Origin: a phage
DNA length: 64,000 bases
Strand: one strand, 5' to 3'
Sequence record: NC_135729.1
Part shown: positions 2,591 through 6,537 of the stretch, one piece after another
Layout: the number at the start of each line of letters is the position of its first letter
Numbering within the stretch: position 1 is the first letter of the stretch
Position numbers and translations under genes: made by a program
Notes under the pieces: generated by a model
The model's input: only the letters and a program-made list of their open reading frames with translations
Databases searched by the model: none
What the model was told of the DNA's origin: nothing

Positions 2591-3049
2591 TCAACACTTT
2601 TTGTACTCTACTACAACCACATCAATATCTGTGGTTGCAAGATTAATTACATCTTCTACATGTTCCCACTTTAGACCGCCAATACCGCATCCAATTTTAG
2701 GAATGTAGAACGGCAATGACACACCTTTGAATACCTCGTTGACTCGCTCAAAACCTTTCATGATTGAGAAGTATTCAGCATTGGGCCCTGGGTAGAACTG
2801 GGTATACAGGTTGATTCCATATACGACCCTGTTCTTGGCAAAATGCTCCCAACAAGAAAACATACCCAGCTTGTCCAGATTACCATAGGCAGTCTCTTTG
2901 TCGGCTGCCAGTGCTTGAGGGAACTCACGGGCAATATCTTTCGCTATGCCTGCACCCATTGTATGAAAGCAGTTACAACCGTGGATCAGGTGACCAGCAC
3001 CGCTCTTAAAAAGGGAGATTAAATCTCCCGCTACAGTATCAATAATCAC
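2591..3049 (-). CDS. macro-domain protein, TARG1/OARD1-like (putative ADP-ribosyl hydrolase)
   Basis: GDLISLF...HLIHGCNCFHTMGAGIAKDIAREFP and LPFYIPKIGCGIGGLKWEHVEDVI align by eye with the TARG1 signatures GDLFSCP...CRMGAGIA...FKKKFG and LSMPRIGCGLDRLQWENV; length 152 aa fits a single macro fold. Confidence 0.7.
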   Translation of the reverse strand: MIIDTVAGDLISLFKSGAGHLIHGCNCFHTMGAGIAKDIAREFPQALAADKETAYGNLDKLGMFSCWEHFAKNRVVYGINLYTQFYPGPNAEYFSIMKGFERVNEVFKGVSLPFYIPKIGCGIGGLKWEHVEDVINLATTDIDVVVVEYKKC

Positions 3050-4260: not shown

Positions 4261-4290
4261 ACAAAAATGCCCCACCCTTTCGGGCAGGGC
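4261..4290 (-). terminator. rho-independent terminator
   Basis: minus-strand hairpin GCCCTGCCCGAAAGGGTGGGGC (plus 4269-4290) followed by ATTTTTGT; a second copy of the same hairpin is at 15885-15906. Confidence 0.6.
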
Positions 4291-4305
4291 TATGTTAACT
4301 AGGTG

Positions 4306-4929
4306 CTAAAAGTATTCGTAGAGGTATCCATCGGGGGCTGGAATTTTTTCATGAATGTAGTAATCAACACATATTCCGGTTTCTCTTCTACAAGAATTGT
4401 GGGATACCCATTCTTTAAGAACGTTTCCATTCATGTCCAGCCTCCTTACATTTTTACACCGTCTACCGCTGGTGCTTCTATGCAACAGAATATCCTCCGT
4501 CTGCTTGTCTTTATTTTCTCCCCAGGTCGTTAAACGGATATTATCAAAAGAGTACCCTTTGAAATCATCTATCCTGTCACAAGAAGGCTTTTTCCTTTTG
4601 TCGTATCCGCTGGCTACCCACTGGTCATACAACTCTTTGTAACCGTTCAGGTATAGCCACTCCTTAAACTCTTTTTTGGTGTAAGTCGGAGGAGGGTGAC
4701 CTCTTTGCTTGCTGTTGCACTTTTGAGCCTTGTACAACACGCGTATTACACCTTTTTCTGAAGAGTCGTGGGAAAACTGGTCAGCCTCCCTGCTGGCCTT
4801 CTTACAACACTCTTTGCACTTATTAAGATGACCGTCAGACATCTTTGGGTGTTTGTAGAACTCGGAGAGGTTTTTCACCTCTCCGCACTTGATGCACCTC
4901 TTACAATGCGTGGATTCTACTTTTGCCAT
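4306..4929 (-). CDS. HNH homing endonuclease (free-standing)
   Basis: zinc-finger-like [10 protein letters not shown]...CKECCK followed by [28 protein letters not shown] (His-Me finger, DRID-type); the track ORF starts at 5016 but an internal Met ([12 protein letters not shown]) at 4929 is more plausible. Confidence 0.65.
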
Positions 4930-6172
4930 ATTGCAAACCCACTGGAGCGAAAGGTATGTCATCACAGAAGTCATACTGTGCTGGATTCTGATCCATTGGG
5001 TCATCTTCCTCATCATTTACAGGAGGAGCGTCTACAGTGTTTTGCTGTGGAGCTGCTTCCTGTTTGGCAGCCTGAGGTTCTTGATGGTCAGTTGACCCAG
5101 CACCGTTCTTGATCCAATCGTACAACGGCTCAGCCAGATTAGTCAAGACATCTTTTGCTTCTGCAGTAATTGCCGCTGCAAAATCATCAACTTTCGTTTT
5201 CTTGTCAATACGGCGACAAGCGTTCAACACCGCATTACCGACACTGGCACCTACTTCATCTTCAGTTCGGTTGGTGGCTTGAGCATACTCTTTCTTAAGC
5301 TCAATGGTGACTACGTGCAGTGTTTTAGCCACGCCCAGTGGGTCGTCTACCTTAAACCCGCGATCCAGGATGATTTGCAACGCATTGATGCTATGCCCCG
5401 TTTCCACACCGATAGGGTCGTAAGAGGATTTACGCTTGCCACCAGAGCCTTGAGTGCCGTTCTCTGCCTTAGGGGGATAGGCCTTGAAACCACTGATAAT
5501 GTTTCCGGTGTCTTTGTCAACAATGGCTGCAACACGACCACCTACCACCAGGTCTTTAAGCTGCTCATCAGTTACAACCATAGCACCTTCGCCAATCTTG
5601 TGGTCATTAACAGTAACCACGTTGCCAACAATCTGAGTCACATCACCATAGATGCGTAAAACGTCCTGATTGGCATTCTGCTGAGGTTTCTGCTTCTGGC
5701 CTTGTGATTGTGCACCTTGTTGCTGTTTTTGCTGCTGAGTCGCTGCTGGAGCCTCTCCTGCACCCAGCTTAACCATCTTAGCCAGTGAGCCCTTGTAATA
5801 GGTCTTACCGTTATGCTCGTTTGCCTTCAAAGGGATATTTACGATCCATCCTGGCGTTACGGTTTCCCACTTGTCATCAATCTTAACAGAGACAGAGTCT
5901 TGATGACCTGGTTTAAGCAGCTTATCACCCATGCTGATCCAGACTTCTTCACCACCTTGAAGCAGGTTATCAGAGGAATCCAGTTCAGAAATCAGTAAAG
6001 AGATGGTGTGGCTGGATTCAATTTTCTTACCTTGCCACACAGTGGTTTTAATACCTGTTGTAGGATCAGCACCTTTGATAGGCTTGATGCTAACACGTTT
6101 AATCATGCCGTGAGCCAGTAAAACAGTTTCACGCGGATTCATTGGGTTAGCGAATTGTTGAATAACGCTCAT
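4901..6172 (-). CDS. protein with SSB-type acidic C-terminal motif (putative ssDNA-binding or SSB-interactome protein)
   Basis: Q-rich linker ([22 protein letters not shown]) and near-C-terminal YDFCDDIPF resembling the bacterial SSB tail MDFDDDIPF, but followed by a 15-aa extension; the N-terminal fold was not recognised. Confidence 0.4.
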
Positions 6173-6537
6173 TATTTGTCTCCTTGTTCTTCGTTAGTGT
6201 TTGCCGTGTGTGCAAACCCTGCTTGAATTAATTTGTCCTGAACTTGAGCCAACAGGCCCATTGCAAAACTTGTGGTCCCAGAGAGGGCCATCAGCATATC
6301 TCGTTGTTGAGCTACCCAACCTAAGGCATAGTCCAAACGACGATATTTTTCTTCTTCACGCAGAGCCTGAAATAATTGTTCAGCCTCCGGTTGTTGTGTG
6401 AGCTCCTGAAGTCTTCCCATGAAAGAAGAAAGCACTAGCAGAAGAGACACTTGATCTTTACTTAACCCTAAGAAAAATTCTTGAGGTTGTTCTTGCTCGT
6501 TCATCGCAACCGACGCTTGATCGTTCATTTGTTCCAT
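6172..6537 (-). CDS. hypothetical protein
   Basis: 121-aa ORF, GGAGA RBS upstream of the ATG. Confidence 0.4.
   Translation of the reverse strand: MEQMNDQASVAMNEQEQPQEFFLGLSKDQVSLLLVLSSFMGRLQELTQQPEAEQLFQALREEEKYRRLDYALGWVAQQRDMLMALSGTTSFAMGLLAQVQDKLIQAGFAHTANTNEEQGDK

What the first reader, a model, noticed from the sequence alone, without database searches (positions are those of the whole stretch)
4306..6172. SSB-type C-terminal tail (YDFCDDIPF) masked by a 15-aa extension where an HNH endonuclease gene abuts
The 423-aa protein ends ...[24 protein letters not shown]. The bacterial SSB tail (DDDIPF) works only with a free terminal Phe carboxylate, so the extension should block canonical SSB-partner binding. 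The extension coincides with the overlapping start of a free-standing HNH homing endonuclease, suggesting an insertion that displaced the original stop, or a decoy/processed tail. The protein also has a D-to-C change inside the motif and a long Q-rich linker.
Basis: partly seen in the sequence, partly recalled or inferred. Interest (0 to 1): 0.5.

Follow-up and report, generated by a model that had tools for sequence, protein, structure and literature searches.

The report
Capped SSB tail plus homing endonuclease
This phage's DNA-coating protein carries the bacterial "DDIPF" docking tail followed by a 15-residue cap that is not junk from a gene insertion but a conserved, apparently undescribed add-on found on many phage and plasmid SSB proteins, here carried in together with a selfish nuclease gene that targets exactly this spot.

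Summary
Window 4901-6172 (-) encodes a 423-aa protein ending [24 protein letters not shown], and an HNH gene (4306-4929, -) starts 29 nt before its stop.

Among ~113 near-identical rV5-like phages, the 640-nt block (cap codons plus HNH) sits exactly between the Phe codon and the stop codon of "empty" alleles that end FDDDIPF*.

The 15 residues are not read-through. The same cap, AP[VI][GT]L[QP][YF]-x-[RN]Hx-I-[HY]-x-[ILF], follows DDDIPF in HNH-free relatives (PVP-SE1, GAP31, Kashira, phi92-like). It also follows DDDIPF in canonical OB-fold SSBs of lambdoid phages, Proteus phages and IncN plasmids, and in other SSB-like families. Synonymous codon changes are abundant.

In the HNH overlap, selection preserves the SSB frame, not the HNH frame.

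The HNH is a PacI/I-HmuI-like homing endonuclease. All 15 close relatives examined lie just after a gene ending in an SSB-type tip. HNH-linked tips are always non-consensus, which explains the D-to-C change as target recoding.

What the cap does is unknown. My best guess is that it changes which partners the tail can bind. I found no paper or solved structure containing it.

The parts
4901..6172 (-). 423-aa rV5-type SSB-like protein (phrog_4477). Predicted parts: OB-like beta domain (residues 1-140), disordered Q-rich linker (141-168), small beta barrel (171-232), four-helix bundle (253-355), disordered acidic tail (362-423).
4949..4972 (-). SSB-Ct-type acidic tip DFCDDIPF (residues 401-408). 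A non-consensus, recoded version of DFDDDIPF.
   Evidence: Empty-site alleles read V/A-FDDDIPF*. Seven of the 25 nt at 4949-4973 differ from phage Murica, against about 2% elsewhere in the gene. GAT->TGT at 4965-4966 gives the D->C change.
4904..4948 (-). 15-residue cap [15 protein letters not shown] (residues 409-423), which makes the tip Phe internal.
   Evidence: The same motif follows the tip in 27 of 72 family clusters. Mean pairwise identity among 20 distinct tails: cap residues 1-7 0.89, tip 0.78, linker 0.14. It also occurs in canonical SSBs and other families. Synonymous codon variation is abundant.
4306..4929 (-). Free-standing homing endonuclease, 207 aa. Parts: N-terminal Cys4 zinc ribbon, PacI-like beta-beta-alpha-Me nuclease core (PSCDRIDD...YS..N..L.TW..N), and a C-terminal domain where some homologues carry PF22083/PF07453 hits that I read as NUMOD-like.
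   Evidence: phrog_1035 'endonuclease VII' E=4e-41. Weak PacI sequence match. Family invariants. AF2 pLDDT 91. Top PDB fold hits are I-HmuI and PacI, probability 0.98-0.99. Presence/absence polymorphism.
4309..4948 (-). 640-nt cassette (cap codons plus the rest of the endonuclease gene). It is absent from empty-site relatives and inserted exactly between the Phe codon and the stop codon.
   Evidence: Alignment A1. About 63 records cover 73% of the query, with spans of 1749-1764 nt against 2401 nt.
4302..4306 (-). 3' flank of the insertion, with clustered substitutions (3 of the 7 nt just 3' of the HNH stop) relative to empty-site alleles.
4266..4293 (-). Hairpin plus T-run (GCCCTGCCCGAAAGGGTGGGGCATTTTT) that looks like an intrinsic terminator. 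It closes the SSB (+HNH) unit and is shared by empty and occupied alleles.
   Evidence: Sequence. Conserved in alignment A1. I did not run the terminator scan; phage Murica's terminator annotation is for a different site upstream of the 121-aa gene.
6172..6537 (-). 121-aa gene whose stop overlaps the SSB-like start (ATGA). A likely co-translated partner of unknown function (phrog_7310).
   Evidence: Homologue directly upstream of the PVP-SE1 orthologue (25% identity, E=9e-12).

Best explanation
**What the protein is.** The 423-aa protein is the rV5-type, non-canonical single-stranded-DNA-binding protein of a Vequintavirus. Its parts are an OB fold, a Q-rich linker, a small barrel, a helical bundle and a disordered acidic tail.

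**The tail.** The tail is a composite short linear motif. It combines the enterobacterial SSB C-terminal tip (DFxDDIPF) with a directly abutting, conserved 15-residue cap (AP[VI]GLQY-x3-I-[HY]-A-L). This tip-plus-cap module is portable. It is found on several unrelated SSB scaffolds of phages, prophages and conjugative plasmids of Gammaproteobacteria, and it is kept by selection on the protein.

**How it got here.** In this phage lineage the cap codons arrive as one 640-nt cassette together with a PacI/I-HmuI-like HNH homing endonuclease. That gene's start codon lies inside the cap codons. The endonuclease belongs to a clade that homes to the 3' end of genes encoding SSB-type tips. Occupied alleles carry recoded, non-consensus tips. 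Here that recoding is D->C, which presumably protects the allele from self-cleavage.

**Function (inferred, not shown).** The cap buries the alpha-carboxylate of the tip Phe. It should therefore abolish or change the canonical docking of host SSB-interacting proteins, while adding a second contact surface. The capped SSB would then address a different, or narrower, host partner set than the free-tip allele.
For: **Identity and family**
- Window is an rV5-like phage.
- OB fold and disordered tail.

**Cassette anatomy**
- Three allele states among close relatives.

**The cap exists without any endonuclease downstream**
- PVP-SE1, GAP31 and BME3.
- Kashira and SSBI34.
- HK75, epsilon34, IncN pTR4 and Proteus phage V3, which are canonical PF00436 SSBs.

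**How widespread the cap is**
- 109 phage and 72 plasmid records match a capped canonical SSB C-terminus by tblastn.
- 87 representative clusters at E<=1e-3 match the tip-plus-cap profile; 27 of them match only the tip part and are free tips.
- Capped hits fall in phrog_44, phrog_2544/32668 and phrog_3284, besides phrog_4477 for the window's own protein.
- About 38 capped tails in GTDB species genomes, nearly all Gammaproteobacteria.

**Selection on the protein**
- Summed over pairs of 11 loci, cap residues 1-7 show 171 synonymous against 108 non-synonymous codon differences.
- In the 8 overlap codons, window and L009 differ at 13 of 24 nt. Six residues stay identical and two change conservatively (including Ser AGT->TCA). 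In the HNH frame all 7 residues before the first Cys differ.

**The cap predates the endonuclease**
- Kashira versus ABPH49.

**Endonuclease identity and site preference**
- Identity.
- All 15 close relatives examined (4 metagenome/genome contexts plus 11 viral contigs) sit after a tip-encoding gene. Only 1 of 69 distant relatives does.
- Recoding is clustered at the junction.
Against: - No binding, cleavage or processing data exist. The functional step is inference from E. coli SSB-Ct structural biochemistry (my own knowledge of ExoI, RecQ, PriA and chi complexes).
- AF2 gives the tail pLDDT <50, so it offers no structural hint.
- The tip remains strongly conserved in capped proteins (0.78 identity). 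That is awkward if the cap simply inactivates it. It fits composite binding, but also proteolytic unmasking or frequent switching between states (at least 14 switches on a rough tree).
- The endonuclease lacks the canonical general-base His (Arg instead, as in the PacI alignment). Its activity is therefore assumed from family conservation.
- The context counts include related sequences and are not independent events.
Confidence: 0.6

Rival explanations
1. First reader's model. The HNH insertion displaced the original stop codon, and the 15 residues are fortuitous read-through that merely masks (inactivates) the SSB tail.
For: - In the rV5 species complex the extension occurs only with this HNH variant. 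Empty-site alleles stop right after DDDIPF.
- A helicase in locus L066 does show a non-cap 22-aa extension after DEDIPF just upstream of a related HNH. True stop displacement may therefore happen elsewhere.
Against: - The same motif follows the tip in many HNH-free genes and in unrelated SSB families.
- Cap residues 1-7 are more conserved than the tip itself.
- Synonymous variation and frame-specific conservation in the overlap.
- The cap predates the HNH in Kashira/ABPH49.
Confidence: 0.04
2. Pro-tail model. The cap is a removable propeptide. A host or element-encoded protease cleaves at Phe|Ala-Pro and exposes a functional free DDDIPF-COOH at a chosen time or place, for example on ssDNA.
For: - The junction is fixed as IPF-AP in every capped tail I read from rV5-family members and fetched loci, with rare AY, SP or GY variants elsewhere.
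- Continued strong conservation of the tip in capped proteins.
- The IncN ssb lies next to a convergent SprT-family metalloprotease.
Against: - No protease is shared by the very different elements that carry the cap.
- The conservation of 14-15 residues beyond the junction is more than a cleavage site needs.
- There is no experimental sign of processing.
Confidence: 0.15
3. Degron or remodelling-tag model. The cap's basic-then-nonpolar C-terminus (…R-H-A-I-H-A-I, …S-R-I-H-A-L) is recognised by a cytoplasmic AAA+ protease or unfoldase (ClpXP, Lon or FtsH class). This would limit or time the level of the foreign SSB.
For: - All caps end in two or three nonpolar residues preceded by H/Y/N and often by a basic residue.
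- From my own knowledge, they resemble nonpolar C-terminal degrons and the MuA RRKKAI ClpX tag.
Against: - A degron need not abut the tip with fixed spacing.
- The most conserved part is the N-terminal half, AP[VI]GLQY, not the extreme C-terminus (0.89 against 0.37 identity).
Confidence: 0.12
4. DNA-level model. The cap region is conserved because it is part of the endonuclease's recognition or immunity sequence or its expression signals, not because of the peptide.
For: - The HNH start codon and its weak Shine-Dalgarno lie in the cap codons.
- The endonuclease clade is specialised on this site.
Against: - Third positions vary freely in nearly all cap codons while the residues are kept.
- Most capped genes have no endonuclease nearby.
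Confidence: 0.03

Closest known systems
E. coli SSB C-terminal tip (SSB-Ct, ...PMDFDDDIPF-COOH)
   Same: Empty-site rV5-like alleles end FDDDIPF and distant family members end ...PPMDFDDDIPF. This matches the E. coli SSB chains in the PDB. The tip sits at the end of a long disordered, low-complexity linker.
   Different: In the window the Phe is internal (residue 408 of 423), followed by a conserved cap, and the motif carries D->C. All PDB chains matching the tail profile stop at IPF. The scaffold is not PF00436.
T7 gp2.5 / DUF2815-type phage SSBs
   Same: An OB-fold phage SSB with an acidic tail. Fold hits include DUF2815 proteins (rank 59; rank 8). From my own knowledge, the gp2.5 tail ends in an essential terminal Phe.
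   Different: The rV5-type protein adds a second small barrel and a four-helix bundle, and uses the host-type DDDIPF tip plus a cap. Sequence similarity is undetectable.
Phage N4 SSB C-terminal activation peptide (binds host RNA polymerase; own knowledge)
   Same: A precedent for an SSB C-terminal peptide that addresses a host protein outside the classical SSB interactome. This is the kind of role proposed for the cap.
   Different: No sequence relationship. The N4 case is a single phage, whereas the cap is a shared module on many scaffolds. The cap's partner is unknown.
I-HmuI and PacI (HNH / beta-beta-alpha-Me nucleases) and free-standing phage homing endonucleases (T4 seg/mob genes; own knowledge)
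   Same: These are the top fold matches. Shared features are a Cys4 zinc site, the PacI-like DRxD...YS..N..L core, presence/absence polymorphism at one site, and recoded flanks.
   Different: Arg replaces the general-base His. The target is the 3' end of genes encoding the SSB tip, in unrelated genes. I did not find this described. The ORF start overlaps the host gene's cap.

Membership tests
Canonical bacterial/phage SSB (Pfam PF00436) | Sequence match to the SSB OB-domain profile | tested here: not met
   No Pfam family at E<=0.01 or E<=10. Canonical capped SSBs used as controls do match (HK75 1.6e-36, Proteus V3 8.6e-20).
Canonical bacterial/phage SSB (Pfam PF00436) | OB fold | tested here: met
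Canonical bacterial/phage SSB (Pfam PF00436) | Acidic C-terminal tip ending in a free Phe carboxylate | tested here: not met
   The tip is present but internal, followed by 15 residues. It is met in about 83 of ~113 close relatives.
Canonical bacterial/phage SSB (Pfam PF00436) | ssDNA binding and partner recruitment | not testable with these tools
   Needs EMSA or fluorescence binding assays and pull-downs.
rV5-type SSB-like family (phrog_4477) | Full-length profile match and conserved architecture | tested here: met
   E=4.8e-174 over residues 1-408. 72 homologous clusters share the domain order.
Tip-plus-cap composite tail (defined here) | [DE][DES][IV]PF immediately followed by AP[VIM][GT]L.[YFH], then 7-9 residues ending nonpolar, at the C-terminus | tested here: met
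   [23 protein letters not shown]. Consensus taken.
Tip-plus-cap composite tail (defined here) | Purifying selection on the peptide | tested here: met
   Synonymous excess and frame-specific conservation. Cap residues 1-7 identity 0.89 against linker 0.14.
HNH / beta-beta-alpha-Me homing endonuclease | beta-beta-alpha-Me nuclease fold | tested here: met
   AF2 pLDDT 91. Foldseek top hits are I-HmuI (prob 0.98, E 2e-3) and PacI (prob 0.99, E 3e-3), with Hpy99I also listed. E-values are modest.
HNH / beta-beta-alpha-Me homing endonuclease | Catalytic His of the HNH motif | tested here: not met
   The family-invariant motif is PSxDRxD...N...N, with Arg119 where His is expected. It aligns with the PacI DRSDSFEGYS...N..L segment. 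No Pfam HNH model matches.
HNH / beta-beta-alpha-Me homing endonuclease | Mobility signature: presence/absence at an identical site in near-identical genomes, with diverged flanks | tested here: met
   About 30 with cap+HNH, about 20 with a variant HNH, about 63 empty. Seven of 25 nt upstream and 3 of 7 nt downstream differ, against about 2% background.
HNH / beta-beta-alpha-Me homing endonuclease | Site-specific DNA cleavage of the empty allele | not testable with these tools
   Needs an in vitro cleavage assay or a co-infection homing assay.

The most novel reading that the evidence does not exclude
The DDDIPF+cap tail is a previously unrecognised, horizontally shared interaction module. Phages and conjugative plasmids of Gammaproteobacteria would use it to redirect or block a specific host protein. 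It might act as a high-affinity decoy for one SSB-interacting enzyme, or as a handle on a new host or defence target. It can be toggled on and off by recombination or by a single stop codon. Separately, a clade of homing endonucleases has specialised on the ultra-conserved DNA that encodes the SSB tip. That clade moves tail variants, cap included, between unrelated SSB genes.
Probability: 0.3. Interest if true: 0.85.

Novelty: new variant of a known kind. Interest (0 to 1): 0.68.

Why it matters
The free C-terminal Phe of the SSB tip is treated as an invariant requirement for recruiting more than a dozen genome-maintenance enzymes. A conserved cap that removes that free end, while the tip stays intact, points to an unstudied way mobile elements tune or subvert the host SSB interactome. 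The cap occurs on at least four or five unrelated SSB scaffolds in phages, prophages and IncN-type plasmids.

The idea is directly testable with peptides and with one-codon phage mutants. Natural capped and uncapped alleles already exist in otherwise about 98% identical phages.

The linked result also matters. A homing-endonuclease clade that targets the tip-coding sequence explains the odd non-consensus tips (C, S, QE, TE variants). It also offers a mechanism for moving tail modules between unrelated genes.

Tried and rejected
**Searches that found nothing useful**
- Pfam scans of the SSB-like protein, the HNH and neighbouring ORFs gave no hits.
- No paper in the library contains the cap or junction strings. 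Concept searches on SSB C-terminal extensions, plasmid SSBs and phage SSB-sensing defence systems turned up nothing relevant. I read the HK620 Sak4/SSB, Pol-SSB primase and DARNA papers.
- No solved structure contains the cap; all matches end at IPF.

**Tool problems**
- The 45-aa profile search returned only short fragments. These still revealed canonical capped SSBs.

**Ideas considered and dropped**
- Beta-clamp-binding motif (PIGLQY against QLxLxh). The Gln is missing, and the aromatic position can be E or H.
- Programmed frameshift or read-through producing both tail forms. No nucleotide conservation around the junction.
- A second, canonical SSB in the window. tblastn finds only the tail.
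- Intramolecular docking of the cap. AF2 leaves the tail disordered.
- Sequencing or frameshift artefact. Excluded by about 30 independent genomes.

**Limitation**
Full report
**1. What is in the window**

The region belongs to an rV5-like myovirus (Vequintavirus). Window 4200-6600 matches 115 phage records at 93-99% identity.

On the minus strand, a 423-aa ORF (4901-6172) ends ...[29 protein letters not shown] 207-aa ORF (4306-4929) begins [12 protein letters not shown]... Its ATG lies inside the cap codons TAT-GGC, so the two ORFs overlap by 29 nt. A 121-aa gene (6172-6537) overlaps the start of the 423-aa ORF by ATGA. A hairpin plus T-run (4266-4293) follows the 207-aa ORF.

It is not an assembly artefact, because about 30 independently sequenced genomes share it.

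**2. What the 423-aa protein is**

- It has no Pfam match. It is a full-length member of phrog_4477 (E=4.8e-174), whose profile ends at residue 408, the Phe of DDIPF.
- AlphaFold2 with 36 homologues predicts five parts: a beta-rich domain (1-140), a disordered Q-rich linker (141-168), a small beta barrel (171-232), a four-helix bundle (253-355) and a disordered tail (362-423).
- Foldseek against viral models finds DUF2815 (gp2.5-like) and other annotated ssDNA-binding proteins.
- No canonical SSB is encoded elsewhere in the 64-kb window.
- Conclusion: a probable, non-canonical phage SSB. ssDNA binding itself is inferred.

**3. Three allele states in the rV5 species complex**

Alignment of the junction shows:

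| State | Examples | Approx. records | Tail | Endonuclease |
|---|---|---|---|---|
| (a) empty site | Murica, JLBYU08, FFH2 | ~63 | 408-aa protein ending ...QYVFDDDIPF* TAA | none |
| (b) rV5 type | this window, rV5 | ~30 | cap present | 207-aa endonuclease |
| (c) inoa type | inoa | ~20 | protein ends ...YEFDDSIPF* (TGA) | 192-aa variant with a different N-terminus, after an 8-nt spacer |

- Relative to (a), the window carries a 640-nt insert (4309-4948) placed exactly between the Phe codon and the stop codon. The endonuclease's own stop takes the place of the old TAA.
- Substitutions against Murica are about 2% along the gene but cluster at the junction. Seven of the last 25 nt before the insert differ (4952-4973, including GAT->TGT, which gives D->C). 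Three of the 7 nt after it also differ.
- A fourth allele (L018) has an empty site but keeps the recoded tip, DFCDDIPF*.

**4. The extension is not read-through**

- Distant members of the same family (25-43% identity) carry DDDIPF followed by AP[VI]GLQY-x-x-H-x-I-Y-x-L.
- In PVP-SE1, GAP31 and Kashira the capped gene is followed by a hairpin/T-run and a convergent tail gene. In SSBI34 it is followed directly by a convergent gene. In BME3 (phi92-like) it is followed by a hairpin and then a methyltransferase gene. None has an endonuclease downstream.
- Codons differ synonymously at nearly every cap position while the residues stay the same.
- Among 72 family clusters, 27 are capped and 44 have a free tip. 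Among 20 distinct capped tails, mean pairwise identity is 0.89 for cap residues 1-7, 0.78 for the tip, 0.37 for cap residues 8-15 and 0.14 for the preceding linker.
- A rough NJ tree needs at least 14 switches between capped and free states.

**5. The cap is a general module of mobile-element SSBs**

- A tail profile recovers capped tails on canonical SSBs. Full genes confirm this, and all four match PF00436 or are clearly canonical:
  - HK75 and epsilon34 SSB: ...[24 protein letters not shown]
  - IncN plasmid pTR4 ssb: ...[24 protein letters not shown]
  - Proteus phage V3 SSB: ...MDFDDDIPFAPIGLPYPRHAIYVI*
- None of these four has an endonuclease downstream.
- tblastn with a capped canonical SSB C-terminus (76 aa) finds 109 phage records and 72 plasmid records, 58 of the latter conjugative.
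- An exhaustive profile search of 1.84 billion representatives gives 87 hits at E<=1e-3; 27 of them match only the tip part and have free tips. The capped hits include proteins of 160-480 aa in phrog_44, phrog_2544/32668 and phrog_3284, besides phrog_4477.
- A degenerate DNA scan of one genome per bacterial species finds about 38 genuine capped tails. All are in Gammaproteobacteria (Enterobacterales, Alteromonadales, Vibrio, Oceanisphaera), apart from one short variant in Sneathiella and one contig labelled Parasphingorhabdus (an alphaproteobacterial MAG). About five hits are chance matches.
- Cap subtypes follow host clade across different scaffolds: GLPYPRHAIYVI in Morganellaceae, TLPFPRHAIHAI in Enterobacteriaceae, and GLQ[YH]PALLxC[MI] in marine taxa.
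- No PDB chain contains the cap. No paper in the searchable library contains the motif strings.

**6. Relationship between cap and endonuclease**

- Kashira and ABPH49 are identical through the cap, the TAA and three further bases. ABPH49 then carries a roughly 415-nt insert before the shared terminator. The insert encodes a 146-aa ORF that starts at the ATG inside cap codons TAT-GCA.
- The N-terminal zinc ribbon of that ORF is homologous to the window's endonuclease. Its nuclease domain is a different, classical HNH by motif. So the cap predates the endonuclease, and the endonuclease ORF borrows its start from the cap.
- In the 8 overlapping codons, the window and a 76%-identical relative (L009) differ at 13 of 24 nt. 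The SSB frame still reads GKSRIHAL against GRSRIYAL, including a Ser AGT->TCA switch. The endonuclease frame reads AKVESTH against GGHAFMP. Selection therefore acts on the cap peptide even here.

**7. The endonuclease**

- It matches phrog_1035 "endonuclease VII". It has a weak sequence match to PacI across C...DRxDxFxGYSxxNxRL.
- Thirty homologues share four invariant Cys and PSxDRxD...N...N, with Arg where the HNH His is expected.
- AF2 gives pLDDT 91. The two best PDB fold matches are I-HmuI and PacI.
- Some homologues carry precomputed PF22083/PF07453 hits, which I read as NUMOD-like.
- All 15 close relatives examined (>=46% identity) lie directly after a gene whose product ends in an SSB-type tip:
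  - canonical SSB ...DWDDQEIPF*
  - a different OB scaffold with the same tail, spacer and endonuclease
  - a 107-aa protein ...DFDTEIPF*
  - a ResIII helicase ...SDEDIPF plus 22 aa
  - 11 of 11 viral contigs
- Only 1 of 69 more distant relatives does so.
- None of these endonuclease-linked tips is the consensus DDDIPF. Nine of the 13 endonuclease-free contexts I examined are exact DDDIPF. These counts include related sequences.
- Inference: this clade homes to the conserved tip-coding DNA. Occupied alleles are recoded, and the window's D->C is one such recoding.

**8. How it most likely works**

Shown:
- the composite tail and its conservation;
- the cassette anatomy;
- the site preference of the endonuclease clade.

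Inferred:
- The cap removes the free alpha-carboxylate that SSB-partner pockets use. This is established for E. coli SSB-Ct complexes (my own knowledge).
- Because the cap always abuts the tip at a fixed IPF-AP junction, it probably forms a composite ligand that changes which host partners are bound.

Alternatives are proteolytic unmasking at Phe|Ala-Pro and a C-terminal degron or unfoldase tag. Neutral read-through and DNA-level constraint are contradicted by the substitution pattern.

**9. Verdict**

- The finding is real and more interesting than proposed, but for a different reason. The extension is a member of a widespread, apparently undescribed cap on mobile-element SSB tails. In this lineage it is delivered by a homing endonuclease that targets the SSB-tip codons.
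- Cap function is unknown.
- I classify it as a new variant of a known kind (the SSB C-terminal interaction tail), with a new site specialisation for a known kind of selfish gene.

Noticed in passing
window 2591-3049 (-): A 152-aa ORF with a Macro (ADP-ribose-binding/processing) domain (PF01661, E=1e-5, above the curated cut-off), three genes downstream of the SSB/HNH unit.
   Followed up: partly
window 6172-6537 (-): A 121-aa gene whose stop overlaps the SSB-like start (ATGA). It is phrog_7310, function unknown. A 25%-identical homologue (E=9e-12) sits directly upstream of the PVP-SE1 orthologue. One GenBank record calls it a putative SSB. It is a possible partner subunit.
   Followed up: partly
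one search hit list (MG0656xx records): Sixteen GenBank records named 'Campylobacter phage' with host C. jejuni are 97-99% identical to E. coli rV5-like phages across this region. One (C2) is the closest match to the window. Host labels look doubtful.
   Followed up: no
L066:141-1976 and 2001-2618: A 611-aa ResIII/DEAD helicase ends ...YDISDEDIPF followed by a 22-aa extension unrelated to the cap (SLSIAIPLASLSLYLEWYNLII). A related HNH gene lies 24 nt downstream. This is a helicase carrying an SSB-type tip, and a possible true case of an insertion displacing the stop.
   Followed up: no
L063:1447-2609 and L064:1467-2609: Two different OB scaffolds (MASKGVNKV... and MAINTITASG...) share the same non-consensus tail ...PPQDWDDQEIPF*. 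They also share a nearly identical ~78-nt spacer and the same HNH gene. This suggests the tail and endonuclease move together between unrelated SSB genes.
   Followed up: partly
L007:3714-4154 versus L016:1440-1700: The ABPH49 endonuclease is a chimera. Its N-terminal zinc ribbon is homologous to the window's HNH, but its nuclease domain is different and looks classical HNH ([24 protein letters not shown]; no Pfam hit at E<=0.01). The GenBank CDS starts at an internal Met.
   Followed up: partly
L018:2600-2800: An rV5-like metagenomic genome has an empty site (no cap, no HNH) but the recoded tip DFCDDIPF*, with mosaic flanks. It is either a cassette-loss product or an endonuclease-immune allele.
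   Followed up: partly
P0116, P0121: A second type of extension after the tip...PPMDFDDDIPF-[LI]GHGYG[IV]CRKAIYAIS. It lacks the AP.GL start but shares the ...AIYAI ending.
   Followed up: no
L014:1039-2387 (IncN plasmid pTR4): The capped plasmid ssb is convergent with a SprT-family zinc metalloprotease gene and lies close to an antirestriction gene. This could matter for a processing hypothesis.
   Followed up: no
L030 (Sneathiella glossodoripedis): An alphaproteobacterial canonical SSB ends ...[15 protein letters not shown], a very short cap-like extension outside the Gammaproteobacteria.
   Followed up: no
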